From IMG/VR virus record IMGVR_UViG_3300045988_078908: a DNA stretch of 33,044 nt, one strand, 5' to 3'. Source of the stretch: a virus. The translations under genes were made by a program, and so were the position numbers. This document shows, piece after piece, positions 1-33,044 of this stretch. The notes under the pieces are model-generated. The model searched no databases. It was given only the letters and a program-made list of their open reading frames with translations, and was not told where the DNA came from. The stretch's first letter is position 1, and every line of letters begins with the position of its first letter.

Positions 1-55
1 CCGCCCTGTTGAGCAGAACGTCCTTGACCATTTCAAGGTCGAATTTCGCCTTCAG
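1..55. repeat. Terminal redundancy, copy 1 (identical to 32990-33044)
   Basis: The first 55 nt (ccgccctgttgagcagaacg...gaatttcgccttcag) are identical to the last 55 nt. This is consistent with the k-mer overlap of a circular assembly. Confidence 0.9.
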
Positions 56-100
56 CAGATTTTTGTACTCAGTGTTTGTGATTTGAACCGTGTTCTCCAT
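1..100 (-). CDS. Hypothetical 78-aa protein, 5' part; the gene wraps the circular junction and continues at 32989 down to 32853
   Basis: ATG at 100-98 lies 9 nt after a GAGGGA SD. The frame stays open across the junction: 100 + 137 unique nt = 237 nt = 78 codons plus stop. Translation begins MENTVQITNTEYKNLLKAKFDLEMVKDVLLNRADTDW... Confidence 0.7.
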   Translation of the reverse strand, partial: MENTVQITNTEYKNLLKAKFDLEMVKDVLLNRA

Positions 101-116
101 TTTTCATCGTCCCTCT

Positions 117-623
117 CTATTTGTCGGTTGCGAAGACGAAAGCCCTGCAACCCTTCGTATCGTTGTAGATGCTCAGCCCGGTAATCTGGCCGCTCTCGAT
201 GCGAACCTTCTCGCAGCGGAAATTGTCGTAGCATTGCATGCGACCGTTCTTGCCCTGTTTGACGTTGCACTTATCGGCGGGAACCCAGATGAACGGGGCC
301 GTGTAAAGCTCGCGCCCGATTCCGAGCATGAACCCGGCGCGCTTGAATGCATCCGAGGCGCGCCCCTTCTCAGCTTCCATGTTGGACGGCGAGCCGTTCG
401 ACTGCTTGGCAACCCACTGGGATTTTTCCGCATCCCAGATTTCGATTGTACAGAACAGCTCTCCGTTGATGCTCTGGTAGCTGTCGCGCCACCCAGTCAT
501 TCCGAAAGTCTCGTCCAGAATGCGCATATCGCAGCGGCTGTCCTTATACAGCAGAAGGGCCACGCCCTTCTGGCTGCATTGCGCCACGCGCACCTCGATT
601 TCGTCTGCCCTCAGCTCGCGCAT
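117..623 (-). CDS. Single-strand annealing protein, Rad52 superfamily (Sak/DUF1071-like)
   Basis: 168-aa ORF with ATG 623 after an AGGTGA SD. The motif EKGRASDAFKRAGFMLGIGRELY matches the Rad52/Sak-type signature. It sits between the Gp157-like and SSB genes. Confidence 0.8.
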   Translation of the reverse strand: MRELRADEIEVRVAQCSQKGVALLLYKDSRCDMRILDETFGMTGWRDSYQSINGELFCTIEIWDAEKSQWVAKQSNGSPSNMEAEKGRASDAFKRAGFMLGIGRELYTAPFIWVPADKCNVKQGKNGRMQCYDNFRCEKVRIESGQITGLSIYNDTKGCRAFVFATDK

Positions 624-624
624 G

Positions 625-1107
625 CTACTTCACCTGCAAGCTTTCGTTGGTGACGATTTCGGCGTGCTCGATTTCGCGCCCATCAGTCAGGGCAGCCTTG
701 ATTGCCGTCTTGTTCGGCGTAGGCTCATTGAAGGTCAGCAAATCGCAGGCGTTCTCGCGCGCCCAGTCAATGAAGGAATCATCGACCTGAATGCTCTTGG
801 CCTTGCGGTAGCTGCAACGGAGCCTTGGGGACTCGAACTTCTGGCCCTTCAGCGCGTAAACCAGAAGGTTCTTGATGCGCTCGGCCTTGTTCTCTACCGC
901 CTTGCGGCGCTGTGCGAGGTTCTCTTCCTCCTCCTTCATGGCCTTCGCTTCGGCTGCGAGGTTCTTGTATAGACAGCCGATGTTCTCAACCTTCTGCGTG
1001 CGCTCCATCTGCAACTCGTCGAAGCGCTTCTCGTCCTCGATTTCGCCCGTCTCCATATCGACCAGAGACATGATAGAATCGTCTATCTCGTAAATGCTCA
1101 TACCCAT
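625..1107 (-). CDS. Siphovirus Gp157-like protein
   Basis: 160-aa ORF with ATG 1107 after an AAAGGGG SD. It has a coiled-coil acidic N-terminal half and occupies the usual Gp157 position immediately upstream of the SSAP gene. Confidence 0.7.
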   Translation of the reverse strand: MGMSIYEIDDSIMSLVDMETGEIEDEKRFDELQMERTQKVENIGCLYKNLAAEAKAMKEEEENLAQRRKAVENKAERIKNLLVYALKGQKFESPRLRCSYRKAKSIQVDDSFIDWARENACDLLTFNEPTPNKTAIKAALTDGREIEHAEIVTNESLQVK

Positions 1108-1862: not shown

Positions 1863-3365
1863 ATGGCATACGCAATGTACCTGCGCAAGTCACGCGCAGA
1901 CGAGGAACTAGGATACGAAAACACACTTGAGAGACACGAGGAAATGCTGCGCAACCTCGCGGCTCAGACTGGAATCCACGTAGACGAATCGCACATCTAC
2001 AGGGAGATAGTCTCAGGTGAGAGCATCGAGGCACGACCACAGATGCAAAGGCTGTTGAAGGCAGTCGAGATGGGACTTTACATGGGCGTGCTCTGCATCG
2101 AGCTTGAGCGCCTCAGCCGGGGCGACGGAGCAGACCAGCAGCGCATACTGAAGGCTTTCCAATTTTCGGACACGAAGATAATCACCTTGACCAAGACATA
2201 CGACTTGGCGGGGGACGATTCATTCGATGAAGAGTTCTTCGAGTTCGGGCTTTTCATGAGCCGAAGAGAATACAAGATGATAAAAAGGCGCCTGTATCGC
2301 GGAAGGATACAAGCGCAGAAGGAAGGATATTTCATTGGGTCGCGCCCACCTTACGGGTACGACAAGAAGAGAATCGGCAAGGGCTATGTGCTGGTACCGA
2401 ACGAGAACGCGGAAGTCGTGCGATATATCTTCAGAAGGTACGCGCAGCGCGAGACGGCGGCGAACATCCTGCACGACCTGAACAACATGGCCATCCCGAC
2501 GGTGACCGGCACGAAGTGGACGGCCTACGCGATTCGCGAGGTCATCAAGAACCAGACGTACATCGGCAAGATAAACACCAAGACGGTTCGCTGCGAGAAG
2601 TCAATCAAAGACGGGAAAGTCGTGCAAAGGTGGCTGAACAACTACGAACCCGTTGTGGTAGAAGGAAAGCACGAGCCGATAGTCGATGAAGAGCTGTTCT
2701 GGAAGTGTCAGGAAGTCCGCGACAGCAAGAAGACGAGAACAAGGTCAGACCTGACCTTGAAGAACCCGCTGGCATCGCTGATGTTTTGCAGCGTGTGCGG
2801 CAAGACGATTCGCCGCACACATTACGACTATAAGGGCGAAAGGACTTTCTACTATGGTTGCGTCACGTCGCGATGCGAGACGAAAAACACATTCACGCAC
2901 GCCGTATACGACATGGTGATGACAGAACTCAAGAAGGAACTGGAACGGCAGCAGGTCATGTTAGCCGATTACGACACGACACCAGAGCATGACGCGAGAA
3001 AAGACGAACTCGAAATGCTCAGGGACGAGCTTGGCAAGAAGTCGATGATGCTTGAGAGGGCATGCGAAGCATACGAGACCGGAATCTACGACCGCCAGAC
3101 GTATTTGGAGCGAGTCCAGAAGGTCAACGCCGCGAGGGCGGAGCTTCAGACGAGGGTCGAGGAACTTGAAGCAAGTATCGAAGAAAGCGAGGAAAGGCAC
3201 GAGAAGGCCGTGCCGATTCTCACAAGGGTTGTCGAGGAAATGCACACCTTGGAGCCGAAGGAACAAAACGACCTGCTCAAGATGATTATCGATAGAATCG
3301 AATATGAAAAGACTGAGTCGGGCGCGGCGATAGAGCCAACGCTCCGAATCAGTCTCAAAATATAA
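1863..3365 (+). CDS. int: Large serine recombinase (phage integrase)
   Basis: 500 aa. It has the N-terminal resolvase motif YLRKSRAD (Ser nucleophile), a recombinase domain, a Cys-rich ribbon CSVCGK...YYGCVTSRC and a long C-terminal coiled coil. Confidence 0.9.
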   Translation: MAYAMYLRKSRADEELGYENTLERHEEMLRNLAAQTGIHVDESHIYREIVSGESIEARPQMQRLLKAVEMGLYMGVLCIELERLSRGDGADQQRILKAFQFSDTKIITLTKTYDLAGDDSFDEEFFEFGLFMSRREYKMIKRRLYRGRIQAQKEGYFIGSRPPYGYDKKRIGKGYVLVPNENAEVVRYIFRRYAQRETAANILHDLNNMAIPTVTGTKWTAYAIREVIKNQTYIGKINTKTVRCEKSIKDGKVVQRWLNNYEPVVVEGKHEPIVDEELFWKCQEVRDSKKTRTRSDLTLKNPLASLMFCSVCGKTIRRTHYDYKGERTFYYGCVTSRCETKNTFTHAVYDMVMTELKKELERQQVMLADYDTTPEHDARKDELEMLRDELGKKSMMLERACEAYETGIYDRQTYLERVQKVNAARAELQTRVEELEASIEESEERHEKAVPILTRVVEEMHTLEPKEQNDLLKMIIDRIEYEKTESGAAIEPTLRISLKI

Positions 3366-7442: not shown

Positions 7443-8069
7443 CTATCCAAGTGCCACGATATAGTTCACCCGGAACGAGCCAGTGTGTGTGCCGCTGATT
7501 GCGACGACGAGCTGCTCGTCGCGCGGGTAGTAATTCACGCCGGAAACCATGAAGTCGTAGCTCGCATTGCCGTTCATCGCGTACACACAATCGCGGGAAT
7601 TGTCGAAGCCTCGCCCGAACTCCTGCGCAAAGCCCGCCTTGTCCCAAAGCGTCGTGTAATTCGCATTGTTGAAGTTCACGACCTTGTAACCGACAAACAC
7701 TCTCGGCGCGCTGGAACTCGCTAGGTTGGCAAGCTCCCCCGTTACCGTCGTGGCGGTCGAATTGGAATCTGAGATGTGGCCGCCCTTCACAATTGAGCTC
7801 TTGACCTTGCGCAAAACGCCGTTAACGACAACGTAATCACCAGCCGCGTACGCCCGTGAAGCGGTGGCAGAAGATTCCACCGCCGCGCTCGGGACGATTT
7901 GGCGCTGAAGCGAAATGCCGTCTGAGTTGTTGACGGTGTACGTTGATGTGGTGTTGTCTGTGTATCTGATTGTGTAGGTATCGACTGAGCCGGTCGTGCC
8001 AGTCTTGCTGATGCTGGCGATTCCTCGCCCGTCTTTTCCCTTGATGTTGCCGATTAAAGTTTTCGCCAT
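7443..8069 (-). CDS. Tail fibre-like protein
   Basis: 208 aa with a GAGGGGTGA SD. The N-terminal module IKGKDGRGIASISKTGTTGSVDTYTIRYTDNTTSTYTV is paralogous to the N-terminus of the upstream 114-aa protein. Confidence 0.75.
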   Translation of the reverse strand: MAKTLIGNIKGKDGRGIASISKTGTTGSVDTYTIRYTDNTTSTYTVNNSDGISLQRQIVPSAAVESSATASRAYAAGDYVVVNGVLRKVKSSIVKGGHISDSNSTATTVTGELANLASSSAPRVFVGYKVVNFNNANYTTLWDKAGFAQEFGRGFDNSRDCVYAMNGNASYDFMVSGVNYYPRDEQLVVAISGTHTGSFRVNYIVALG

Positions 8070-18335: not shown

Positions 18336-20021
18336 TTAGATGACCTGAACAGTGAAGTCAGGCATTTGATTGAAAACAACGTCCTGCTGCAGCAAGTATA
18401 CGGCGTTGATAAGAGAAACCACCATATCGACCTTGCCTTTGCTCTTTTTCTTATGGACGTACATGTTCTTGTTCGTGTCGTATGAGCAGCGGGCATTCTG
18501 GAAGTTGATTTCGAGCAGCTTGTTGTCGGTGTACTCGAACTCTCCGCAAAGAATCTTCTCCCTCAGAAGTTTCGTCGGCGGATGGAGCACGCTGGAATGC
18601 TGCCTGATTTCGACGGTGTTGTATCCCGCGCCTTCCAACTTCTGCGCGGTGCTGAGCGCGTTCCATCGGTCGTAGCCGATTGCCTGCACTTGCACGCCGT
18701 ACTTTTCCTCGATGCCGAGAATGAAGTCCTCGACAACCTTGTAGTCGATTACCCTGTCACCGCAAGCGACGCACTTCCCGGCGCGGACGAACTCGTTGTA
18801 GTCGATTTTCTCGTATGCGTTCTTCTCAGGAATGCGGCCCTCTGGCACGAACGCGAAAACATCGGCGAGGATGTTTCCGTCATCGTCTGCCGCCACCATC
18901 GCTACCGCCGTGTTGTCGTTCGTTTCCGAAAGGTCTAGACCCAGATACACGACGCGCTCGCGCCAGTCGATGTTGGAAACCTTGCACGCCTGAACGTCGG
19001 CAACGTCGATGAACGTCTCCGTGCCCTGCCCTTGGTAGATGATGTTGCAGTGCTTCGTGAGGAAGTTCTCACGCGCAGATTCTACCGCGATTGCGTAGGC
19101 TCGTTTCTTCTTCAAGTCCTCCCAAATCTCGGGTATCTCCAAGCTGACGGGGTTCGCCTGACGCATCACCAAATCGTCCGTCATCCAGTCCTTCGCATCG
19201 TCAGGCTCGTAGAGCAAGGCGAACAGCGTATCATCCTCGGCAATTCCGTCCAGCACCTTCTTGGCGTATGCCACCTCGTCCTCGAAAGGATTGTCTATCG
19301 TCGGGTACTTGGTCGAGATGATGAAGCCGAGCTTGTTCAGGATGTTGAGCTGGCCCGACTTCATGGCTTCGACGGCGTAGCTGGTCGGCAGCGCCCCAAC
19401 CTCGTCCGCGCAGAATGCGCTGGGGAGTCGGCCATCCATTCGAGACGTTGAATAGCTCAGTGGTACGTATGTCGAACTCTTCGGCTTGAACGTAATGCAG
19501 TCGCGCAGAATCTTGAAACGCTTGTTTCCCTTGTACTCGTACACAAGCGGGGACGAGCGCAGCGTCTGCGAGATTGCTTCGCGAATCTGCCTTGAAAGCG
19601 ACCCGTCTGGTGCGACCGAGAAGAACTCCGCGAATCGCGGCTCGGTCAGCATGAGGATAATGAAGATGGTCGCTACCGTGTACGTCTTGAAGTTCTTTCG
19701 GGCGATTTCCAGAAGCCCGATTTCGTAGCGCCGCTTCTCTGGATTGTCACGGTAGACGGTGCATAGAACAGCCGTGTACAGCAACCATTGGTATCCAGTG
19801 GTGCATTCGTAAAGCTTCTGCCCAGCCTTCAGGCCCTTTGGCATGACGAGCAGTTTGAGAATCGACTCCATCTGGCGAATCTTGGCGTCGCTCACGAAGT
19901 ACTTGTCGCTATTGCCGTCGCATACGTCCATCCAAAGGCGCATCTGCTTCTTGACGTACTTCGGGGTGGTGTCCGCGTCTATCGTGCGCTCGCAGTACTC
20001 GTAGCCCCTATTCCTCGCCAT
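18336..20021 (-). CDS. terL: Terminase large subunit (Terminase_1 family)
   Basis: 561 aa from ATG 20021. The Walker-A-like region is LLEIARKNFKTYTVATIF, and there is a C-terminal nuclease-like region. It sits between TerS and the portal. Confidence 0.9.
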   Translation of the reverse strand: MARNRGYEYCERTIDADTTPKYVKKQMRLWMDVCDGNSDKYFVSDAKIRQMESILKLLVMPKGLKAGQKLYECTTGYQWLLYTAVLCTVYRDNPEKRRYEIGLLEIARKNFKTYTVATIFIILMLTEPRFAEFFSVAPDGSLSRQIREAISQTLRSSPLVYEYKGNKRFKILRDCITFKPKSSTYVPLSYSTSRMDGRLPSAFCADEVGALPTSYAVEAMKSGQLNILNKLGFIISTKYPTIDNPFEDEVAYAKKVLDGIAEDDTLFALLYEPDDAKDWMTDDLVMRQANPVSLEIPEIWEDLKKKRAYAIAVESARENFLTKHCNIIYQGQGTETFIDVADVQACKVSNIDWRERVVYLGLDLSETNDNTAVAMVAADDDGNILADVFAFVPEGRIPEKNAYEKIDYNEFVRAGKCVACGDRVIDYKVVEDFILGIEEKYGVQVQAIGYDRWNALSTAQKLEGAGYNTVEIRQHSSVLHPPTKLLREKILCGEFEYTDNKLLEINFQNARCSYDTNKNMYVHKKKSKGKVDMVVSLINAVYLLQQDVVFNQMPDFTVQVI

Positions 20022-20379
20022 CGCTGTCACCGTTGATTATCGCCATGAGCGGGTCGTAGTCAGAGTCGCGTTCCTCGTCCTCCTTGGCGAACCCCTTGAT
20101 GATTTTCATGAGAGTTGTGACCGTGCGGTTGGCCGAGTCCGTGGTCTTGTTGTATTCGGTCACGGCTGGGTTGACGTAGATGTTCGCGCGACCCTTGACA
20201 TACTCCTTGGTGACTAGCGTTCCAGTCTCGCGGATTGCCGCTTCAAGCTCGGCGAGGTTGTTGAGCTGCACCTGATAGCGCTTGAACGTTGTCATGAAGA
20301 AGAAGTTGGTCTGTACGCCCGTCTCCTCGGCTATCTTCAGAATTTCCTGCGCCTGCTCCTTAAGGCTCTTCTTTGCCAT
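20008..20379 (-). CDS. terS: Terminase small subunit (P27 family-like)
   Basis: 123 aa from ATG 20379, which lies 8 nt after GGAGG. The pattern FF.TTFKRYQVQLNNLAELEAAI...G........G.....NPA is typical of P27-type TerS. Confidence 0.8.
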   Translation of the reverse strand: MAKKSLKEQAQEILKIAEETGVQTNFFFMTTFKRYQVQLNNLAELEAAIRETGTLVTKEYVKGRANIYVNPAVTEYNKTTDSANRTVTTLMKIIKGFAKEDEERDSDYDPLMAIINGDSDGEE

Positions 20380-20384
20380 ATTCG

Positions 20385-21233
20385 CTACCTCCGTTTTCTG
20401 TATCTGTCGCTGATGATTTTCGGGACGCATTTGTTCCAATCTACCCGATGGTGCATCCTTCGGTGGTGCGCCCCCATCTCTGCAACCCTCACGGCCTGCG
20501 GCGCGACGATGACGCTGTAGAACGACTTGACGTATGTGCCGTAGTCGAGGTAAAGGGTTGTCATGCCCTCGGCGTTCTTTTGGGTCTGCGCCTGCGTAAT
20601 CTGCGTGTTGGTGACGGTGAAGAACAGCTTCCCTTGGTTCCCCAGCATGACGTAAGTGTTGGTGTCCTCGTTCACCCTGCCGACGAACCGGAACTGCCGG
20701 TCGGTCTTCAGGAACCAGACGTTCATGGCCTTGCGCGAGAGTCCTTGGTGGAAGAAACGGTTTGCACCGCCTATCAGGTCGCCACCCTGCGCAAGCGCGA
20801 CGGCAAGCGCGCCGCTCACGTCAAGGAACCCGAAGCAGTCCTCGAAGAGCCTATCCAAATCGTCGCAGTACTTGCTCTTGAGCTGCGCACCGCTCAGGAA
20901 CCTGAACATGAAGTTGCCGTAATCGTCATCGAGAACAACGAAGTGGTCAAGGCCCAACCGCTCCGCTATGTTGAAGCACTCGTTGCGGGCGTACACCACC
21001 CCGCGATGGTCTTCAACGGCATCCGCCGTGTCCGTCCACTTGGCGACCTCTGCCTTGTCAAACTGAACCACCATATCGCCGTAGCGTCGCTTGTACTCTT
21101 CTGCGCTATCGTCCTCGTTGTCGATGATGATGTACGTGTCACCGCTGTAGTTGCCCTTCTTAAGGGCATTGAGTGTCGCTATGTTGTCTGGCCTGCCATG
21201 CGAGACGATGAACACCGCGTAATCATTGCCCAT
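20385..21233 (-). CDS. GT-A fold glycosyltransferase-like protein, paralog B
   Basis: 282 aa with a GGAAGGTGG SD. The motifs occur in GT2 order: YAVFIVSHGR (beta1), YIIIDNED, VVYARNECFNIAERLGLDHFVVLDDDY (ARN...DxD) and RVNEDTN (ED). It is about 35-40% identical by eye to the upstream gene. Confidence 0.65.
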   Translation of the reverse strand: MGNDYAVFIVSHGRPDNIATLNALKKGNYSGDTYIIIDNEDDSAEEYKRRYGDMVVQFDKAEVAKWTDTADAVEDHRGVVYARNECFNIAERLGLDHFVVLDDDYGNFMFRFLSGAQLKSKYCDDLDRLFEDCFGFLDVSGALAVALAQGGDLIGGANRFFHQGLSRKAMNVWFLKTDRQFRFVGRVNEDTNTYVMLGNQGKLFFTVTNTQITQAQTQKNAEGMTTLYLDYGTYVKSFYSVIVAPQAVRVAEMGAHHRRMHHRVDWNKCVPKIISDRYRKRR

Positions 21234-22065
21234 TCTTGCGCCACCTTCCGCTGATAATCTTCGGATAGTACAATGCGCTCGCTTTTCTCAATGGTGCTCG
21301 TCGGTCACCGATGGTAATCTTCAAACCGCTTGGATGCACAATAAGTGAGTAGAAGTCGCGAATATACTGTTCGTTGCCAACGTAAAGCTCATGCAGCCCA
21401 CCGTCGTTGGTACCTCTCAATGGAGCGTTCTTTACGATTCCCATAACCTCAAGCGCCATCTGTCCGACGTTCGCACCAAGAAGTGTCGCGTTTAGGTCTT
21501 CATTTAACAAGCCGACGAACCTCAGCCTATCGCCAGCACGAAGAACGTACGCTTGGTTGAAATTCCACCGCAACCCTTTCGAGTAAACGCCGTTCATACC
21601 TCCGATAAGCGCACCGCTTGTTGCTATGCAAAGGGATGCAACCCCAGTCGATTCAACGAATTCCAGCATTGCATCAAACAGCGCGTCAAAATCGGTCACG
21701 GGTGCGGAAACAAGCTTACCGCCCTTGACGTACCTGAACGTGAACTGGTTCAGGTCATCGTCGAACATCGCGAAGTAGCTCAGACCCAAATCATCCGCGA
21801 TGTCGTATGCCGCGTTCCTCGCGAACACGACGGAACGAAGCTCGTCCTCGGTAGTCATGGTGTCTACGCACTTGGCGTACTCGCGCTTGTCGAACACGAT
21901 GACGCTGTCACCGTAAAGCCGCTCGTACTCTGCCCTCTGCTCGTCAAGGTCGTCGATGACGAGATACACCTTGCCAGTGTACCCGCGCTTCTCCGACTCA
22001 TTGAAGGTCGCTTGGTCGTGCGCCCTTCCATGCGTGAGAATCAGCACCGCGAAGTCGCTACGCAT
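21223..22065 (-). CDS. GT-A fold glycosyltransferase-like protein, paralog A
   Basis: 280 aa from ATG 22065, overlapping the ParB-like stop by 8 nt. Motifs are FAVLILTHGR, YLVIDDLD, VVFARNAAYDIADDLGLSYFAMFDDDL and LLNEDLN. It has a C-terminal basic tail YPKIISGRWRK. Confidence 0.65.
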   Translation of the reverse strand: MRSDFAVLILTHGRAHDQATFNESEKRGYTGKVYLVIDDLDEQRAEYERLYGDSVIVFDKREYAKCVDTMTTEDELRSVVFARNAAYDIADDLGLSYFAMFDDDLNQFTFRYVKGGKLVSAPVTDFDALFDAMLEFVESTGVASLCIATSGALIGGMNGVYSKGLRWNFNQAYVLRAGDRLRFVGLLNEDLNATLLGANVGQMALEVMGIVKNAPLRGTNDGGLHELYVGNEQYIRDFYSLIVHPSGLKITIGDRRAPLRKASALYYPKIISGRWRKNGQ

Positions 22066-22804
22066 CGTCCTCACCGCTCATGAAGTCGATGTCCTCGGCA
22101 AGCTTCGCGTATCCCTTGGCGATTGCGTCCTCGACGTCGATGATGACGAGCGCCGAGTCCTCCATAAGCTCCTGCATCTCAGGCGTCGCGTTGGCGTAGT
22201 ACTCCGCGACGTTCTTGTAGTTGAAGGCGTAGTGTCGGGTGGCTGCCTTGATTAGGAACTCGCGTTCCTCGGGCGTGACGTTCGAGTCCTGAATCCTCAT
22301 GACCAGCTCGTTGGCCTTCGAATCGTCAACCAGCTCGTCGATGGTCGGGCACTCGCCAGTCGGCTCGTACTGCGGGATATTCACCTTCTTGGTATAGGTA
22401 TCGTCCGCCTGCGGCTCGTCCTCTTCAAGCTCTTCGAAGTCGAACCCGAAGTCAGACATGTCGATGTCCTCGATGCCCTCAAGCTCGATGCCAAGCTTCG
22501 CCATGTCCCACTGTGCAAGCTCTCCCGTCTTGTTGTCGGCCAGACGGAATGCCTTCACCTGCTCGGGGGTCAAATCGTCCGCCACGATGACGGGAACCTG
22601 CTTTAGCCCCAGCTTGTGCGCGGCCTTCAGGCGCGTGTGGCCGTTGATGATTACGCTCTCTCCGTCAACCACGATTGGAACCTTGAAACCGAACTCCTTG
22701 ATGCTCGCAGCCACCGCATCGACCGCGTTGTCGTTCAGTCGCGGGTTGTTCGCGTACGGAATCAGCGAATCAACGTCCATGTAGGTTACTTTTGTCTTCT
22801 CCAT
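22058..22804 (-). CDS. ParB/Srx N-terminal domain protein lacking the usual methyltransferase fusion, with an unassigned C-terminal domain
   Basis: 248 aa. The segment DSLIPYANNPRLNDNAVDAVAASIKEFGFKVPIVVDGESVIINGHTRLKAAHKLG is the ParB-like domain found at the N-terminus of phage ParB-methylases. It is followed by an acidic linker and a domain of roughly 110 aa (KVNIPQYEPTGECPTIDELVD...). Confidence 0.75.
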   Translation of the reverse strand: MEKTKVTYMDVDSLIPYANNPRLNDNAVDAVAASIKEFGFKVPIVVDGESVIINGHTRLKAAHKLGLKQVPVIVADDLTPEQVKAFRLADNKTGELAQWDMAKLGIELEGIEDIDMSDFGFDFEELEEDEPQADDTYTKKVNIPQYEPTGECPTIDELVDDSKANELVMRIQDSNVTPEEREFLIKAATRHYAFNYKNVAEYYANATPEMQELMEDSALVIIDVEDAIAKGYAKLAEDIDFMSGEDDA

Positions 22805-23073
22805 GCCTTGAAAACTCCCTTCTCGATGTTCTGAAAGACGCTATGGGGGAAACGCTCGAAAGAATCCCCGATAATCGCCCTTATTGAATGATAATCGGAG
22901 TTTTACGCTCCATAAACCGCTGTTTTCCAAAAAACCCCAGCAGATTGAAAATTTAGTGTCCAGAGTAGGGCAGTCAGATAGCCCGACAACCCGCCCGAAT
23001 TCCCCGTAGGGCAGGGGGGATTGTTCCCCCCAAAGTTATCAACAGCGTTCCCAACACAGGACGATAGACTGCG
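22805..23073. other. 270-nt non-coding region, a candidate cos site and/or late promoter
   Basis: No ORF longer than 15 aa on either strand. It has a G6A-TTGT-TC6 hairpin (23014-23031), a GATAATCG direct repeat (22870-22877 and 22890-22897) and a GC-rich tract (22981-23031). It lies between HNH and the packaging operon. Confidence 0.4.
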
Positions 23074-23451
23074 TTAATGGCCCGCAATCCTCTTGGCCGC
23101 AAGCCCTCTCAGATATCCCTTCGGCAGCTCGCCATCGTCAGCCATCCTATGGTGCAGCCTGCATAGGCACACGAGGTTGCCGTCCTCAATCAGCCCGTCC
23201 GGGTCTTCCCTGAGCTTCTCTATGTGGTGGACCTCAAGCCCCTCGGTCGTGACCTTCCCTTGGTCTCGGCACACCTCGCACATCCAGTGCGCATCGTCCC
23301 TGACCTGAAGGCTCTTCCTCTTCCAGCGTGCAGTGAAGCGCAGCCTGTCCGCGCCCGTCCTCTCGTACCTGTATGTCGGCTTCTTACTCGGGCAAGGCTC
23401 GCCGTATGCGTGCATCTTCCCGCACCTGCTGCAAGCCCTGTATGCTCCCAT
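23074..23451 (-). CDS. HNH endonuclease (terminase-associated type)
   Basis: 125 aa from ATG 23451, which follows a GAAGGGGGGA SD. It contains CSRCGK...C and the motif EVHHIEKLREDP...NLVCLCRLHH. Confidence 0.85.
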   Translation of the reverse strand: MGAYRACSRCGKMHAYGEPCPSKKPTYRYERTGADRLRFTARWKRKSLQVRDDAHWMCEVCRDQGKVTTEGLEVHHIEKLREDPDGLIEDGNLVCLCRLHHRMADDGELPKGYLRGLAAKRIAGH

Positions 23452-30630: not shown

Positions 30631-30946
30631 TGTAATTGATGTACGCCATGAGCTTCTTTTTCATCTTGTACTCGGCTGTCTTGAATCCCTTGCAGTCTTC
30701 CACGACAACCTTACCGCCGCGATGGTAAACGAAGTCTGCGACGTACTTCATGCCACGGTATTTCACGCCGTCGCACTCGAAGCTCGGCAGAAGCTCGAAC
30801 GGAACCTGAAGGCGCAAGTCCTGAATCTCGCCCGCTTCCTCCATACCTCGAAGCTTGGTATACCGCTTGGCCTCCTTGGCGCTGTCGAACTCGATGCCGT
30901 CAACGACCGTCTTCTTCGCGTGGTACTTACTTACCCGTGCTGCCAA
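30611..30946 (-). CDS. DUF1064 protein (PD-(D/E)xK-like nuclease, putative resolvase)
   Basis: 111 aa from TTG 30946, which lies 6 nt after GGGGAGGTG. The pattern SKYHAKKTVVDGIEFDSAKEAKRY...YVADFVY...VVEDCKG matches the DUF1064 family. Confidence 0.75.
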   Translation of the reverse strand: MAARVSKYHAKKTVVDGIEFDSAKEAKRYTKLRGMEEAGEIQDLRLQVPFELLPSFECDGVKYRGMKYVADFVYHRGGKVVVEDCKGFKTAEYKMKKKLMAYINYINIEES

Positions 30947-31337
30947 AGCCGTCACCTCCCCTCTCGGAATCGTCAAGCTTGTCAACGACGTCAAAATCCA
31001 CGTACTCGCATGGCACGATTACGAGCTGTGTAATCTTGTCCCCACGCTCGATGACGTGACACTTTTCGCTGTGATTGTAGAGCTTTACCTTGATTTGCCC
31101 CGTATATCCCTCGTCGATGACGCCCTCGGACGTGATATCGTGCCTGACGTTCAGCCCCGATTTGCTCTTCAGCATGCCGACGTAGCCGTGCGGCAGCTGG
31201 ATATGCATGCCAGTGTCGATGACGCGCGAACCCCTCGCGGGAACATACGTGTCGATTGGCGAGCGAAGGTCTGCCCCTGCGTCCGTGCCGTGGGCACGCA
31301 CGGGAACGGACGCGCAACTATCGAGTTTGATTTTCAT
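30927..31337 (-). CDS. dut: dUTPase (trimeric type)
   Basis: Motifs AGADL, GMLKSKSGL, GVIDEGYTGQI and RGGDGFGSTG are present. The start is ATG 31337, or possibly 31346. Confidence 0.9.
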   Translation of the reverse strand: MKIKLDSCASVPVRAHGTDAGADLRSPIDTYVPARGSRVIDTGMHIQLPHGYVGMLKSKSGLNVRHDITSEGVIDEGYTGQIKVKLYNHSEKCHVIERGDKITQLVIVPCEYVDFDVVDKLDDSERGGDGFGSTGK

Positions 31338-31557
31338 TGCCTTCATCCTTCCCGAAGCTGTATCTTGCATACCTTGTGGCCTGTCCGTAGCGGTTCTTGC
31401 CGTGCTCCCGCTCCGTGTGTATATCGTGGCCGTCCTCCTTAAGCTCGAAGATGACAGCCGCTAGCCTTGTCACTCCAAGGTCTTTGAATGCGTCCAGCGG
31501 CGTTATGCTGCCGAACTCGCGTATGTAGTCGAGAACCATCTGCTTCTGGCTTGCCAT
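31318..31557 (-). CDS. Winged-helix/HTH domain protein
   Basis: 79 aa with an AAGGGGGTGA SD. It contains QMVLDYIREFGSITPLDAFKDLGVTRLAAVIFELKEDGHDI. Confidence 0.7.
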   Translation of the reverse strand: MASQKQMVLDYIREFGSITPLDAFKDLGVTRLAAVIFELKEDGHDIHTEREHGKNRYGQATRYARYSFGKDEGNENQTR

Positions 31558-31573: not shown

Positions 31574-31891
31574 CTAGACGTAGTTGCGCCCGAACATGCT
31601 TATAAATTCATCAATTGTCCAGCCGTAGTGCGCCATCGCACGCTTCTGCGAAACCTCCTGAAGGTACTCTTCGAAAGGGCGGTTGAAATGCACCGCATAG
31701 TCGCTCATGTTGTGCGCGTCTGGCGATAGGAAGACGTACAAGCCAAGCTCGATTGACTTCTTTCGGTTCGGGCCGTGGAAGACCTCGTGACGTACGAGCC
31801 ACGGTTCGCGCTCGTCGTACCAGTCAATCAAGACACCATGACGCTCGTCGTACCACTCGCCGCACCCGAGTATGCTATGCTCTTTCATCAT
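31574..31891 (-). CDS. Conserved phage protein of unknown function (HxVFxGxNRKxS...GL motif family, Cys ligands not conserved)
   Basis: 105 aa from ATG 31891, whose ATGA overlaps the NinB-like stop. It contains VRHEVFHGPNRKKSIELGLYVFLSPDAH...FISMFGRNYV. The upstream 140 aa of the 245-aa ORF were rejected. Confidence 0.65.
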   Translation of the reverse strand: MMKEHSILGCGEWYDERHGVLIDWYDEREPWLVRHEVFHGPNRKKSIELGLYVFLSPDAHNMSDYAVHFNRPFEEYLQEVSQKRAMAHYGWTIDEFISMFGRNYV

Positions 31892-32352
31892 CCCTCGCCC
31901 TCTACGTACTTCAGCCGTGCGATTTCCTCGCGCGTGAGAACCGGGATGCCCTGCGCTTCGCATTCCTCCCTCGCCCCGTCGATGAGACGCGAGAACTCCG
32001 TCGAATCCATGTGACTCGAACCCTTGTAGACGCGGTAATGCGTGAACTCGCGACCGCCAGCGAATCCCGTTCCGATTTCCTCGAAGTATCGGAAGTACCC
32101 GGAAACGTCGATATCGGAACGGACGCTCACGACCTCGAAAGGCGCGTGCTCCTTCAGCATGCGGAAATGAAGCTCCGAGGTCGGTATCCTCAGGACTCGC
32201 CCGAGCTGGTTGACCATCGACCAATAGTAGGCGTTCTGGGTGAGCGTGCGCTTGCGCTTGCGCTCCTTGATTTCGTAAATCTGCTCGCCCTTCGGCTGCG
32301 AGAACAGCCAATGGATGATTTCCTCGGCTGTTCCAATCATGCCGCCAATCAT
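31888..32352 (-). CDS. NinB/Orf-like recombination mediator
   Basis: 154 aa. ERKRKRTLTQNAYYWSMVNQL parallels lambda Orf ERNRSLDQNRKLWACL. YKGSSHMDSTEFSRLIDGAREECEAQGI parallels GQSTSRMRVGEFAELLELIQAF. Confidence 0.65.
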   Translation of the reverse strand: MIGGMIGTAEEIIHWLFSQPKGEQIYEIKERKRKRTLTQNAYYWSMVNQLGRVLRIPTSELHFRMLKEHAPFEVVSVRSDIDVSGYFRYFEEIGTGFAGGREFTHYRVYKGSSHMDSTEFSRLIDGAREECEAQGIPVLTREEIARLKYVEGEG

Positions 32353-32416
32353 TCCGCCCCGCCCCCTTTCCAGATAGAGGCGGGATGCTTCAGAGCACCC
32401 CGCCCCGTTTCAGTCT

Positions 32417-32863
32417 TTAAAAAGGCAAATCCTCGTCGTAGAACTCGGACTGCGGGGCCTCGGCGTAGGCCTGCCGGGCGTTCCACTGCGGCGCGGGATA
32501 CGTCTGCTGCTGCGGCTGATAGCCCTGCTGCTGGGGCTTGCGGTTCTGCATAAGCTCGATTTCGTTGGCGATGATGTCTACCTTGGAATGCTTCTGGCCG
32601 TCCTTCTCCCAGCTCGAATAGTGGAGCTTGCCAGATACAGCGACCTTCATGCCCTTGGCGAGGATGTCGCTCAGCGCCGTGGCGCGGTTTCCGAAGGTGA
32701 CGCATTCGAAGAAGTTGGGAACGTCCTCCCATTGCCCCGAAGCGTTCTTGCGGCGGTCATTCACAGCGATGCCGAAGCTCAGCAAAGGCGTGCCGCTTGC
32801 CGTGCTGCGAAGCTCTGGTGACCTCGTCAAATTTCCTACTAATGCAACATGATTAATGCTCAT
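32417..32863 (-). CDS. ssb: Single-stranded DNA-binding protein
   Basis: The N-terminus has the OB-fold pattern MSINHVALVGNLTRSPELRSTASGTPLLSFGIAVN. It also has a Gln/Pro-rich linker and the acidic tip DEDLPF. Confidence 0.9.
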   Translation of the reverse strand: MSINHVALVGNLTRSPELRSTASGTPLLSFGIAVNDRRKNASGQWEDVPNFFECVTFGNRATALSDILAKGMKVAVSGKLHYSSWEKDGQKHSKVDIIANEIELMQNRKPQQQGYQPQQQTYPAPQWNARQAYAEAPQSEFYDEDLPF

Positions 32864-33044
32864 TAGTAGACGCCCCCTTGCCGTTCAGCTCTTCGAGCTT
32901 CTTGTCGTATGCGTCCCCCATGATGTGGCGGAAAACGGCGCTGGTGGTCGCATCGTTCCACGTGAGATATTTTCCCGACCAATCGGTGTCCGCCCTGTTG
33001 AGCAGAACGTCCTTGACCATTTCAAGGTCGAATTTCGCCTTCAG
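32853..33044 (-). CDS. Hypothetical 78-aa protein, 3' part (5' part at 1-100; 32990-33044 duplicates 1-55)
   Basis: The frame ...LNRADTDWSGKYLTWNDATTSAVFRHIMGDAYDKKLEELNGKGASTNEH* ends at the TAA at 32855-32853, 11 nt inside the SSB gene. Confidence 0.7.
   Translation of the reverse strand: MKAKFDLEMVKDVLLNRADTDWSGKYLTWNDATTSAVFRHIMGDAYDKKLEELNGKGASTNEH
32990..33044. repeat. Terminal redundancy, copy 2 (identical to 1-55)
   Basis: Direct comparison with nt 1-55. Confidence 0.9.

What the first reader, a model, noticed from the sequence alone, without database searches (positions are those of the whole stretch)
20385..22804. Orphan ParB/Srx-domain protein plus two tandem paralogous GT-A glycosyltransferase-like genes fused into the packaging operon: a candidate DNA or virion glycosylation module
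SEEN IN SEQUENCE. Three co-oriented genes sit between the HNH/cos-candidate region and terS, and they are translationally coupled. The ParB-like stop and the GT-A start overlap by 8 nt (22058-22065). GT-A and GT-B overlap by 11 nt (21223-21233). The terS SD lies inside the last codons of GT-B. The two ~280-aa proteins are clear paralogs. Shared blocks are [FY]AVxIxxHGR; YxGxxYxxID; YGDxVxxFDKxExAK; VVxARNxxxxIAxxLGLxxFxxxDDD; LIGGxN; RFVGxxNEDxN; FYSxIVxP; and PKIISxRxRK.

ESTABLISHED KNOWLEDGE. A hydrophobic beta1 strand, then ARN..A.G...f.DxD, then a downstream ED is the motif order of GT-A (GT2-like) nucleotide-sugar transferases. The ParB N-terminal domain seen here (IINGHTRLKAAHKLG) is normally the N-terminal module of phage ParB-DNA-methyltransferase fusions. 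ParB-like partners also accompany DNA-modification systems, for example DndB in Dnd and DpdB in Dpd.

WHAT DIFFERS HERE. The methylase domain is absent. It is replaced by an acidic linker and an unassigned C-terminal domain of roughly 110 aa (KVNIPQYEPTGECPTIDELVD...SALVIIDVEDAIAKGY).

INFERENCE. The trio may act on DNA as it is packaged (sugar-based hypermodification, anti-restriction) or may glycosylate virion proteins. I see no hydroxymethylase, TET/JBP dioxygenase, base-exchange enzyme or nucleotide kinase anywhere in the genome. If DNA is the target, its chemistry is therefore not explained by known pathways, and that is what would make the module new.
Basis: partly seen in the sequence, partly recalled or inferred. 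Interest (0 to 1): 0.75.

Follow-up and report, generated by a model that had tools for sequence, protein, structure and literature searches.

The report
Phage ParB-like protein with paired glycosyltransferases
A gut phage carries, just ahead of its DNA-packaging genes, a ParB-like protein coupled to two sugar-transferring enzymes; this pairing recurs in the roughly 140 related viral and bacterial loci I examined, from many bacterial phyla, archaeal viruses and the E. coli Rac prophage, its target is unknown, and the phage has no enzyme that would prepare DNA to accept a sugar.

Summary
Both ~280-aa paralogues are members of Pfam TAGT (PF20691), the GT-A family that includes the base-J glucosyltransferase and GREB1. 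Their ARN, DDD and NED motifs are invariant.

The ParB-like protein is not an orphan. It belongs to a ~250-aa family (E. coli Rac YnaK) made of a ParB/Srx N-domain, an acidic linker and a strongly conserved C-domain. In 137 of 138 informative loci from viral contigs and from genomes of more than 10 phyla, this protein sits directly upstream of a TAGT. Downstream terminases belong to at least four different Pfam families.

Neither this 33-kb genome, nor phage c5, nor the ~42 kb of an intact Rac prophage examined encodes a TET/JBP, a thymidylate-synthase-like hydroxymethylase or a DNA methylase.

In close relatives (terL 72-97% identical) the same slot mostly holds ParB-N fusions. Of ten sampled, three carry an N6/N4 DNA methylase domain, one Methyltransf_23 and two DUF4417.

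Best reading (confidence about 0.45): a late, portable ParB-assisted DNA glycosylation cassette whose acceptor chemistry is unexplained. Protein glycosylation remains a serious rival. It is a new variant of a known kind, widespread and testable in E. coli.

The parts
22805..23073 (.). Intergenic region between HNH and the ParB-like gene. It is the likely cos and late-leader region. It contains the palindrome GGGGGGAACAATCCCCCC at 23016-23033.
   Evidence: Sequence read; repeats. In Lactobacillus phage c5 the annotated cos site lies 90 nt upstream of the homologous ParB gene, after holin, lysin and HNH. The assignment here is inferred by synteny and was not tested.
22475..22804 (-). ParB/Srx-type N-terminal domain (residues 1-110) of the YnaK-family protein. 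It carries NPR (20-22), GHTR (55-58) and ADN (89-91) in place of the QPR, GERR and EN of chromosomal ParB.
   Evidence: Pfam ParB_N E 2.7e-7. PDB profile hits to Noc, Spo0J and ParB at E 4e-9, with GHTR aligned to GERR. AlphaFold pLDDT is 80-94 over residues 1-90. Foldseek matches Noc, ParB, KorB, Srx and SerK. phrog_498, a ParB-methylase fusion family, matches residues 3-136 at E 8e-44.
22355..22474 (-). Acidic linker predicted to be disordered (residues 111-150, net charge -12). It holds the family-wide motif Y137-x6-P144-x-Y146-E147.
   Evidence: pLDDT below 50 for residues 125-150. Charge. Y137 is present in 114 of 115 and P144 in 113 of 115 diverse family members; Y146 is at least 90% and E147 at least 60% conserved.
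22061..22354 (-). Conserved helical C-terminal domain (residues 151-248, net charge -16). It is the signature of the YnaK family (FL..A..R...FNY..IAEYYA....Q.LME.SALVIID...AI..GY) and has no Pfam assignment.
   Evidence: Alignments. A search with residues 137-248 (linker motif plus C-domain) found 1154 clusters at 50% identity; in the 150 best listed, those long enough to be full length carry the match at the C-terminus of ~245-340-aa proteins. No significant Pfam match and no PDB match to this region. Its divergence tracks that of the adjacent TAGT (Spearman 0.45; partial 0.41 controlling for the N-domain), while the N-domain does so only weakly (0.21; partial 0.11).
21223..22065 (-). GT1: accessory, divergent TAGT-family GT-A glycosyltransferase. 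It keeps ARN, DDD (nt 21754-21762) and NED, but lacks the conserved C-terminal Q..TQ, HH and W residues of the core type.
   Evidence: Pfam TAGT E 9.6e-24, 84.9 bits against a cut-off of 27.5. phrog_842 E 7e-37. Alignment. In other loci with two TAGTs, the ParB-proximal copy is always the divergent one, at 22-32% identity to either window copy.
20385..21233 (-). GT2: core TAGT-family GT-A glycosyltransferase, with ARN 82-84, DDD 102-104 (nt 20922-20930), NED 188-190 and a basic C-terminal tail PKIISDRYRKRR.
   Evidence: Pfam TAGT E 5.9e-38, 131 bits. phrog_842 E 1e-63. 4349 homologues, and all 120 listed carry PF20691. AlphaFold pLDDT 80.9, pTM 0.84. Foldseek against PDB gives GT-A folds only at a distance (K4CP, SunS, TarP, SpsA; E 1e-5 to 2e-3), mixed with sugar nucleotidyltransferases. 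Against BFVD it matches TAGT-domain viral proteins at TM 0.84-0.87 and a T4-like beta-glucosyl-HMC alpha-glucosyltransferase at TM 0.60.
20008..20379 (-). Terminase small subunit, translationally coupled to GT2.
   Evidence: phrog_13845 E 3e-46 and weaker hits to the terS families phrog_5110 and Pfam Terminase_4. Start codon and Shine-Dalgarno read. Gene call.
18336..20021 (-). Terminase large subunit (TerL_ATPase plus TerL_nuclease), the downstream anchor of the module.
   Evidence: Precomputed Pfam annotation on the identical public contig.
23074..23415 (-). HNH endonuclease immediately upstream of the cos-candidate region. This is context typical of cos phages and not part of the modification module.
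   Evidence: Pfam HNH E 3.6e-4 and phrog_144 E 8e-19. Same position in phage c5.

Best explanation
This is a portable, late-expressed two-component modification cassette. A YnaK-family ParB/Srx-like protein partners a core TAGT glycosyltransferase (GT2). In this phage an accessory, divergent TAGT (GT1) is inserted between the two.

Proposed mechanism: the ParB N-domain is the same DNA-directed delivery or activation module that is fused to DNA methylases in sibling phages. Here the enzyme is a separate polypeptide, recruited through the conserved linker motif and C-domain. The pair glycosylates newly replicated phage DNA around the time of packaging: GT2 adds the first sugar from a nucleotide-sugar and GT1 elaborates it. 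Progeny DNA then enters the next host protected from nucleases.

Shown here: family membership, intact catalytic motifs, obligate ParB-TAGT adjacency, translational coupling to terS, interchangeability of the slot with ParB-methylase fusions, and absence of any 5hmC or 5hmU pathway.

Inferred: DNA as the acceptor, contact between the C-domain and TAGT, the division of labour between GT1 and GT2, and an anti-restriction role.

Unknown: the acceptor atom. With no hydroxymethylpyrimidine available, the chemistry would have to differ from every characterised DNA glycosyltransferase.
For: 1. Both enzymes are TAGT members well above the Pfam threshold. ARN, DDD and NED are at least 90% conserved in 115 diverse homologues. 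Published work relates TAGT to the base-J DNA glucosyltransferase (PMC7968844). The model also resembles a T4-like beta-glucosyl-HMC alpha-glucosyltransferase.

2. The pairing is obligate. A YnaK-type ParB lies directly upstream of TAGT in 70 of 71 viral loci and 67 of 67 genome loci, mostly with a gap of -7 to +15 nt. The hosts span Bacillota, Bacteroidota, Pseudomonadota, Verrucomicrobiota, Planctomycetota and others, plus haloarchaeal virus HHTV-2.

3. The cassette is portable. The downstream terminases fall into at least four different Pfam families and the portals differ too. The substrate must therefore be universal, such as DNA, or carried within the cassette.

4. The slot is interchangeable. 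Among 39 relatives with terL 72-97% identical and the slot fully visible, 30 carry a ParB-N protein without TAGT, 8 carry nothing and 1 carries ParB plus TAGT. Of ten of these ParB-N proteins sampled, three are fused to N6_N4 DNA methylase, one to Methyltransf_23, two to DUF4417 and four have no second Pfam domain. The window's N-domain matches such fusions far better than it matches chromosomal ParB.

5. There is a precedent. A ParB-like protein with the same layout (nucleotide-binding domain, unstructured segment, C-terminal domain, no DNA-binding domain) is a required activator of a phage DNA thymine dioxygenase on double-stranded DNA (PMC13229309).

6. The gene overlaps and the terS Shine-Dalgarno inside GT2 place the genes in the same transcription unit as the packaging genes.
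Against: - No acceptor is available by known chemistry. There is no TET/JBP, ThyA-like hydroxymethylase, C5 methylase or kinase in the window, in the annotation of complete phage c5, or in the ~42 kb of an intact Rac prophage examined. None recurs in 146 representative ORFs upstream of, or within 1.5 kb downstream of, TAGT.
- The ParB-like protein is extremely acidic, with net charge -31 and a family median of -30. Its C-domain is acidic too, unlike the DNA-binding C-domains of true ParBs. This fits poorly with a DNA clamp.
- A TAGT relative, GREB1, glycosylates a protein.
- The published ParB-dependent dioxygenases are linked to kinases and amino-acid transferases, whereas GT-linked dioxygenases lack ParB. 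The analogy is therefore indirect.
- The authors of the largest survey of phage GTs set aside GT contigs lacking 5mYOX or ThyS as less likely to act on DNA.
- I found no report of modified DNA for any phage carrying the module.
Confidence: 0.45

Rival explanations
1. The module glycosylates a protein within the cassette. TAGT glycosylates its own partner, the YnaK-type protein, on the near-invariant tyrosines of the disordered acidic linker (Y137, Y146) or on nearby residues. The product is a glycosylated, strongly acidic, possibly DNA-mimicking factor that acts during packaging or on the next infection.
For: Portability of the cassette requires a universal or self-contained substrate. The most conserved non-enzymatic features of the cassette are a short motif in a disordered segment and the C-domain. 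The protein has net charge -31. GT-A enzymes that glycosylate proteins or peptides are among the structural neighbours, including SunS and a collagen galactosyltransferase complex. GREB1, a TAGT relative, O-GlcNAcylates a protein. From my own knowledge, glycogenin is a GT-A enzyme that glucosylates one of its own tyrosines. The C-domain co-varies with TAGT, which fits enzyme-substrate contact as well as it fits enzyme-activator contact.
Against: It does not explain why the same slot holds ParB-N DNA methylase fusions in sibling phages. It also does not explain why an NTP-binding ParB fold is retained. There is no precedent for such a glycoprotein in phages. The conserved motif could equally be a docking peptide.
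Confidence: 0.15
2. The module glycosylates another conserved macromolecule: a host protein, an RNA such as tRNA, or a virion protein. The purpose would be takeover, anti-defence or virion decoration, with the ParB-like protein acting as an NTP-dependent regulator or adaptor.
For: GT-A DxD enzymes commonly modify proteins (own knowledge: clostridial toxins, NleB/SseK; structural neighbours). About 65% of phage GT contigs lack any base-modification partner. ParB-CTPase folds have diverse roles unrelated to DNA segregation (PMC12704722).
Against: Capsid, portal and terminase proteins belong to different families across carriers, which excludes a conserved virion or packaging protein as acceptor. 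Hosts range from archaea to Proteobacteria, so a host target would have to be nearly universal. Late expression with the packaging genes suits takeover poorly. There is no signal peptide or membrane segment that would suggest cell-wall conversion.
Confidence: 0.2
3. It is a conventional hydroxymethylpyrimidine glucosylation pathway in which the oxidase or hydroxymethylase is present but unrecognised, or is supplied by the host.
For: The TAGT family was defined by association with TET/JBP (Pfam name). Thousands of 5mYOX-like sequences escape the Pfam TET_JBP model. One relative carries a FolD-like one-carbon enzyme upstream.
Against: After assigning the genes of the 33-kb genome, no unassigned ORF long enough for a dioxygenase or ThyA-like enzyme remains outside the tail-gene block. 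The 245-aa ORF at 31574-32311 is mostly a spurious extension of a ~105-aa gene, and the other unassigned early-region ORFs are 161 aa or shorter. The same holds for the annotations of the 31.8-kb phage c5 and of the Rac prophage stretch examined. No family other than ParB and terminase recurs near TAGT across 80 viral loci.
Confidence: 0.07

Closest known systems
ParB-dependent phage thymine dioxygenases (5mYOX plus ParB; O'Toole et al., PNAS 2026, PMC13229309)
   Same: A phage ParB-like protein with a nucleotide-binding N-domain, an unstructured middle segment, a C-terminal domain and no DNA-binding domain is encoded next to a post-replicative DNA-modifying enzyme. These loci often lie near terminase and GT genes.
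   Different: No dioxygenase is present here. The partner enzyme is a glycosyltransferase. In the published systems ParB goes with kinases and amino-acid transferases, while GT-linked dioxygenases lack ParB. Here the linker carries a conserved motif and the C-domain is strongly acidic.
TAGT / base-J glucosyltransferase / GREB1 family (Pfam PF20691; Iyer et al. 2013; Shin et al. 2021, PMC7968844)
   Same: Both paralogues score far above the family threshold and keep the catalytic motifs. NCBI's pipeline names the E. coli homologue 'GREB1-related protein'.
   Different: The name-giving association with TET/JBP is absent in this subfamily. The characterised members act on 5hmU DNA (JGT, own knowledge) or on a protein (GREB1). 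Neither substrate is evident here.
Phage ParB-N DNA methyltransferase fusions (phrog_498; ParB_N plus N6_N4_Mtase or Methyltransf_23; Kaljevic et al. 2025, PMC12704722)
   Same: The N-domain is homologous over ~135 residues. They occupy the same genomic slot directly upstream of terS and terL in sibling phages.
   Different: In those proteins the effector is fused and is a methylase. Here it is a separate glycosyltransferase, and the ParB protein has acquired its own conserved C-domain.
T-even phage hmC glucosylation (alpha-, beta- and beta-glucosyl-HMC alpha-glucosyltransferases)
   Same: Sequential sugar addition by two transferases is a possible parallel for GT2 and GT1. The PHROG annotation and a TM 0.60 structural match point to the T2/T6-type second transferase.
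   Different: T-even phages make hmC before replication, using dCMP hydroxymethylase. No such enzyme is present here. The phage is a small temperate siphovirus with a serine recombinase.

Membership tests
TAGT (Pfam PF20691, GT-A clan) | Profile score above the curated gathering threshold | tested here: met
   GT2 scores 131.3 bits and GT1 84.9 bits against a cut-off of 27.5. All 120 listed homologues carry PF20691.
TAGT (Pfam PF20691, GT-A clan) | GT-A (nucleotide-diphospho-sugar transferase) fold with a DxD motif at the end of a central strand | tested here: met
   AlphaFold model with pTM 0.84 and DDD 102-104 at the end of strand 97-102. Foldseek hits to K4CP, SunS, TarP and SpsA are distant (TM 0.33-0.49), and sugar nucleotidyltransferases score similarly. 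Viral TAGT models match at TM 0.84-0.87. DDD and NED are at least 90% conserved.
TAGT (Pfam PF20691, GT-A clan) | Genomic association with a TET/JBP dioxygenase (the origin of the family name) | tested here: not met
   None is present in the window, phage c5 or the Rac stretch examined. No TET_JBP appears among the families hit by two or more of 146 representative neighbouring ORFs, nor in the Pfam-annotated contigs. Single occurrences among the 80 viral loci are not excluded.
TAGT (Pfam PF20691, GT-A clan) | Glycosyl transfer to a hydroxymethylpyrimidine in DNA | not testable with these tools
   This needs LC-MS of DNA or an enzyme assay.
ParB/Srx N-terminal domain (PF02195) | Profile score above threshold, and the ParB/Srx fold | tested here: met
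   31.0 bits against a cut-off of 26.3. PDB profile hits to Noc and Spo0J at E 4e-9. Foldseek matches Noc, ParB, KorB, Srx and SerK.
Canonical partition ParB (ParABS) | Helix-turn-helix DNA-binding domain, a basic C-terminal dimerisation domain, the GERR box, and a ParA partner with parS sites | tested here: not met
   TIGR00180 scores 41 bits against a cut-off of 58. GHTR replaces GERR. No helix-turn-helix is found, and the C-domain has net charge -16. No ParA was found in any scanned ORF of the window. parS sites were not searched for.
ParB-dependent DNA-modification systems (O'Toole 2026) | ParB with a nucleotide-binding domain, an unstructured segment and a C-terminal domain, and no DNA-binding domain | tested here: met
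   The N-domain is predicted with confidence, residues 125-150 are disordered, and the C-domain is helical but low-confidence. The architecture matches the description.
ParB-dependent DNA-modification systems (O'Toole 2026) | An adjacent cognate 5mYOX dioxygenase whose activity depends on ParB | tested here: not met
   No dioxygenase is present. The adjacent enzyme is a TAGT.
YnaK-type ParB-TAGT cassette (defined here) | A ~250-aa ParB-N protein with the Y..P.YE linker motif and the conserved C-domain, directly upstream of and co-oriented with a TAGT gene | tested here: met
   The window has all these features. The adjacency holds in 70 of 71 and 67 of 67 loci. The E. coli counterpart is ynaK plus 'GREB1-related protein'.

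The most novel reading that the evidence does not exclude
The YnaK-TAGT pair glycosylates DNA that carries no prior hydroxymethyl handle, attaching a sugar directly to a canonical base or another DNA position. That would be a new class of DNA modification made by a two-gene cassette. The cassette is present in temperate phages of more than ten phyla and of archaea, and in about one in six complete E. coli genomes (Rac-like prophages).
Probability: 0.2. Interest if true: 0.9.

Novelty: new variant of a known kind. Interest (0 to 1): 0.6.

Why it matters
ParB-like proteins have only recently been shown to activate one phage DNA-modifying enzyme, a thymine dioxygenase. Published surveys set aside the many phage glycosyltransferases that lack a dioxygenase or hydroxymethylase neighbour.

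This window belongs to a large group that joins those two threads. A dedicated ParB-like family is strictly paired with a TAGT glycosyltransferase, no known route to a sugar acceptor on DNA is present, and the pair sits in a slot that sibling phages fill with ParB-methylase fusions.

If DNA is the target, the chemistry is new and affects how restriction, type IV and CRISPR defences see many temperate phages. If the target is a protein, it is a new ParB-coupled glycoprotein system.

Either way the question can be answered with standard E. coli genetics, because intact Rac-like prophages carry the pair.

Tried and rejected
- Megablast of 18 kb of the window against GenBank phages found nothing.
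- Sequence search of PDB with a TAGT profile found no solved relative.
- The AlphaFold model of the ParB-like protein is unreliable beyond the N-domain (pLDDT 69, pTM 0.44), so its fold search says nothing about the C-domain.
- NCBIfam has no model for the TAGTs or for terS. PADLOC gives only the ParB-N/methylase match.
- Iyer et al. 2013 could not be read, so what I say about it rests on citations in other papers and on memory.
- The supplement of O'Toole et al. is not held, so the window's ParB could not be compared directly with a dioxygenase-associated ParB.
- A literature search for ynaK found no functional study.
- I first guessed that the K-12 gene ydaY is the TAGT remnant. The intact Rac annotation shows ydaY lies in the tail region, so I withdrew this.
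- Lysogenic conversion of the cell wall was rejected. The proteins show no membrane features, the genes are co-transcribed with packaging genes, and the hosts include Gram-positive bacteria, Gram-negative bacteria and archaea.
- DNA-end glycosylation at cos was considered but is unlikely. The cassette also precedes T7-type and Terminase_6N/3-type terminases, and carriers such as Rac have P22-like heads, so it is not tied to cos phages.
- My greedy ORF caller mis-called GT2 in the window and some ParB genes. I replaced it with HMM searches on stop-to-stop ORFs.

Full report
**1. The observation**

The three genes exist exactly as described. On the minus strand lie a 248-aa ParB-like gene (22058-22804), a 280-aa gene (GT1, 21223-22065) and a 282-aa gene (GT2, 20385-21233). 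They are followed by terS and terL and preceded by an HNH gene and a 270-nt intergenic region. An independent gene caller on two near-identical human-gut metagenome contigs of 30-33 kb gives the same genes.

I read the junctions directly. The ParB stop and GT1 start overlap by 8 nt. GT1 and GT2 overlap by 11 nt. A GGAGG inside the last two GT2 codons precedes the terS ATG at 20379. GT1 and GT2 are paralogues: 37% identity, E 6e-63.

**2. What the proteins are**

Both paralogues belong to Pfam TAGT (PF20691, 'TET-associated glycosyltransferase'), at 131 and 85 bits against a threshold of 27.5. Both also match PHROG 842. GT2 has 4349 homologues at E<=1e-5, and all 120 listed carry the same domain.

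ARN(82-84), DDD(102-104) and NED(188-190) are invariant in a 12-sequence alignment that includes phage c5, a Salmonella phage and haloarchaeal virus HHTV-2. They are at least 90% conserved in 115 diverse members.

An AlphaFold model (pLDDT 81, pTM 0.84) has the GT-A layout, with DDD at the end of a central strand. It matches solved GT-A enzymes only distantly (chondroitin polymerase, SunS, TarP, SpsA), and sugar nucleotidyltransferases score similarly. It matches viral TAGT models closely (TM 0.84-0.87) and a T4-like beta-glucosyl-HMC alpha-glucosyltransferase at TM 0.60. A published alignment relates TAGT, the base-J glucosyltransferase and GREB1; GREB1 itself O-GlcNAcylates a protein (PMC7968844).

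The ParB-like protein has three parts:
- A confident ParB/Srx N-domain (Pfam, PDB profile and Foldseek). NPR, GHTR and ADN stand where partition ParBs have QPR, GERR and EN.
- A disordered acidic linker.
- A helical C-domain that no library recognises.

The N-domain matches phage ParB-methylase fusions much better than it matches chromosomal ParB (phrog_498 E 8e-44; PADLOC MTase_II E 1e-27).

The full-length protein defines a large family. The search returned at least 7960 hits, but it was capped at 8000 candidates and includes N-domain-only relatives such as the methylase fusions. A search with residues 137-248 (linker motif plus C-domain) found 1154 clusters at 50% identity. In the 150 best listed, those long enough to be full length carry the match at the C-terminus of ~245-340-aa proteins. 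The family signature is a Y-x6-P-x-YE motif in the linker plus a C-domain that is better conserved than the N-domain. The protein is very acidic, with net charge -31 against a family median of -30.

**3. Context elsewhere**

A tblastn search of GenBank phages found the TAGT next to a ParB gene, directly upstream of the terminase genes, in several phages. In L. delbrueckii phage c5 the order is cos, ParB, TAGT, terL. The same arrangement occurs in a Salmonella phage, in P. gingivalis phages and in Nocardia phage NTR1. E. coli phage hits also have a ParB gene under or beside the match. Haloarchaeal virus HHTV-2 has the ParB-TAGT pair with terL about 2.9 kb further downstream.

I then fetched 80 IMG/VR loci and 80 loci from GTDB species genomes with a TAGT alignment and searched stop-to-stop ORFs with HMMs built here. 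Results:
- A YnaK-type ParB lies upstream on the same strand in 70 of 71 viral loci and 67 of 67 genome loci that have enough upstream DNA. The gap is mostly -7 to +15 nt.
- The C-domain is present in 68 of 70 and 64 of 67 of these.
- The one exception has a ParB C-terminal fragment between two TAGTs.

The hosts include Veillonella, Clostridia, Blautia, Bacteroides, Escherichia, Shigella, Pantoea, Verrucomicrobiota, Planctomycetota, Kiritimatiellae, Ignavibacteria, Acidobacteriota and a Methanosphaera bin.

Downstream, the terminase large subunits belong to different Pfam families: Terminase_6N/3, T7-type, lambda gpA and TerL_ATPase. So this is a mobile two-gene cassette with a fixed position, not part of any one packaging machine.

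In E. coli the cassette is ynaK plus a gene that NCBI's pipeline names 'GREB1-related protein'. It lies between trkG and terS of Rac-like prophages. The full pair is present in 889 of 5426 complete genomes. I found no functional study of ynaK.

Loci with two TAGTs recur: seven of the 80 viral loci, six of the 80 genome loci, and the contig. In the six viral loci where both copies could be compared, the terminase-proximal copy is the canonical GT2 type (47-50% identical to GT2). The ParB-proximal copy is a divergent extra (22-32%). GT1 keeps the catalytic motifs but lacks the conserved C-terminal Q..TQ, HH and W residues. This suggests a different acceptor, for example the product of GT2. That last step is inference.

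**4. Is there a source of hydroxymethylpyrimidine?**

No. Pfam and PHROG scans of the window's ORFs identify:
- SSB, dUTPase, DUF1064, a DnaD-like protein and a DnaC-like protein;
- small proteins of unknown function;
- holin and a GH25-LysM lysin;
- HNH, the module itself, terminase, portal, protease, capsid and tail genes;
- a serine recombinase.

No TET/JBP, thymidylate-synthase homologue, DNA methylase or kinase appears. The only long unassigned ORF outside the tail-gene block (31574-32311) is a spurious extension of a ~105-aa gene. Several ORFs inside the tail-gene block (up to 358 aa) also lack Pfam hits.

The annotation of the complete 31.8-kb phage c5, and the ~42 kb of an intact Rac prophage I examined, are equally devoid of such enzymes. 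Among 146 representative ORFs upstream of, or within 1.5 kb downstream of, TAGT in the viral loci, no TET_JBP family appears among families hit by two or more ORFs. Single occurrences cannot be excluded. Three Pfam-annotated contigs agree.

**5. What favours DNA as the target**

(a) Because the cassette moves between phages with unrelated capsids, portals and terminases, and between bacteria and archaea, its substrate must be universal or carried inside the cassette.

(b) I fetched 80 relatives of the window's own terL (72-97% identical) and examined the slot upstream of terS. Of 39 loci with the slot fully visible, 30 hold a ParB-N protein without TAGT, 8 hold nothing and 1 holds the YnaK-TAGT cassette. 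Ten of the ParB-N proteins were sampled: three are fused to N6_N4 DNA methylase, one to Methyltransf_23, two to DUF4417, and four have no second Pfam domain. These fusions are the phage-enriched ones reported by Kaljevic et al.. The TAGT cassette is thus a positional alternative to ParB-methylase fusions.

(c) O'Toole et al. showed that a phage ParB-like protein with the same architecture is required for a DNA thymine dioxygenase to act on double-stranded DNA. They also found that GTs, ParBs and terminases are the commonest neighbours of such dioxygenases. Burke et al. cite Aravind's earlier proposal that ParB directs modification enzymes to DNA during packaging.

(d) The divergence of the C-domain tracks that of the adjacent TAGT (Spearman 0.45; partial 0.41). 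The N-domain does so only weakly (0.21; partial 0.11). This suggests that the C-domain is the TAGT-facing part. It is a weak test, because pairwise distances are not independent.

**6. What speaks against it**

- There is no acceptor by known chemistry.
- The ParB-like protein is far too acidic to resemble a DNA clamp.
- A TAGT relative modifies a protein.
- In the published systems ParB accompanies kinase and amino-acid-transferase pathways, whereas GT-linked dioxygenases lack ParB.
- Pyle et al. explicitly set aside the ~65% of GT contigs without a 5mYOX or ThyS neighbour as less likely to act on DNA.

The near-invariant tyrosines in a disordered acidic linker keep open the possibility that the partner protein is itself the substrate.

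**7. Verdict**

The module is not rare. Its components and their co-occurrence are already in the literature. The ParB-like protein is not an orphan.

What remains open, and undescribed as far as I could find, is a strictly paired YnaK-type ParB plus TAGT cassette that lacks any hydroxymethylpyrimidine pathway. I rate it a new variant of a known kind (ParB-assisted phage nucleic-acid modification modules). DNA glycosylation is the best explanation at about 0.45 confidence, and interest is 0.6. The interest rests on how widespread the cassette is, on its presence in E. coli Rac prophages, and on the possibility of new DNA chemistry.

Noticed in passing
window 1-1107 and 32349-33044: The window looks like a complete, circularly permuted phage genome. 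Rad52-like and Gp157 genes at the left end continue the recombination and replication module (SSB) at the right end. Public contigs of 30-33 kb carry identical copies of the packaging-region genes in the same order.
   Followed up: partly
window 1863-3365 (+): A large serine recombinase (Resolvase, Recombinase and Zn-ribbon domains) lies on the opposite strand from almost all other genes. The phage is therefore temperate.
   Followed up: no
window 30927-31370 (-): A dUTPase gene sits in the early region, and a relative with two TAGTs (L171) also has one. It is not conserved in other carriers such as phage c5, so it is probably unrelated to the module.
   Followed up: partly
window 23016-23033: The palindrome GGGGGGAACAATCCCCCC lies in the HNH-ParB intergenic region. 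It is a candidate cos or terminase-recognition element by synteny with phage c5.
   Followed up: no
L198 and L199, 5001-7387: In two close relatives the terL match spans 2387 nt instead of 1680 nt, at 93% identity. This suggests an insertion of about 700 nt (intron, intein or homing element) inside the terminase large-subunit gene.
   Followed up: no
L173 6792-7553, 18014-19918 and 20132-20852: A relative carries a FolD-like methylene-tetrahydrofolate dehydrogenase/cyclohydrolase upstream of its ParB-TAGT pair. It also has a prohead protease fused to an ADP-ribosyltransferase toxin domain, next to an ADP-ribosyl glycohydrolase.
   Followed up: no
L222 48-1193 and L211 2630-3697: ParB_N-DUF4417 fusions (E about 1e-75 for DUF4417) occupy the same pre-terminase slot in sibling phages. 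The function of DUF4417 is unknown, and it may be another DNA-directed effector.
   Followed up: partly
L090 10579-13972: The intact Rac-like prophage of E. coli WR3-3 carries the anti-phage genes iteA and iteS between its replication and late regions. It also has two tRNA genes upstream of its lysis genes.
   Followed up: no
P0016 (430 aa): One homologue is a fusion of a partial TAGT copy to a complete one. This shows that tandem TAGT duplicates can fuse into a single gene.
   Followed up: no
L088 4890-5891 (Vibrio jumbo phage pv27): In ~190-kb Vibrio phages the TAGT homologue (40% identical) has an N-terminal extension. It sits in a replication module beside a helicase, and no ParB gene is annotated within 5 kb on either side. 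This is a different context for the same enzyme family.
   Followed up: no
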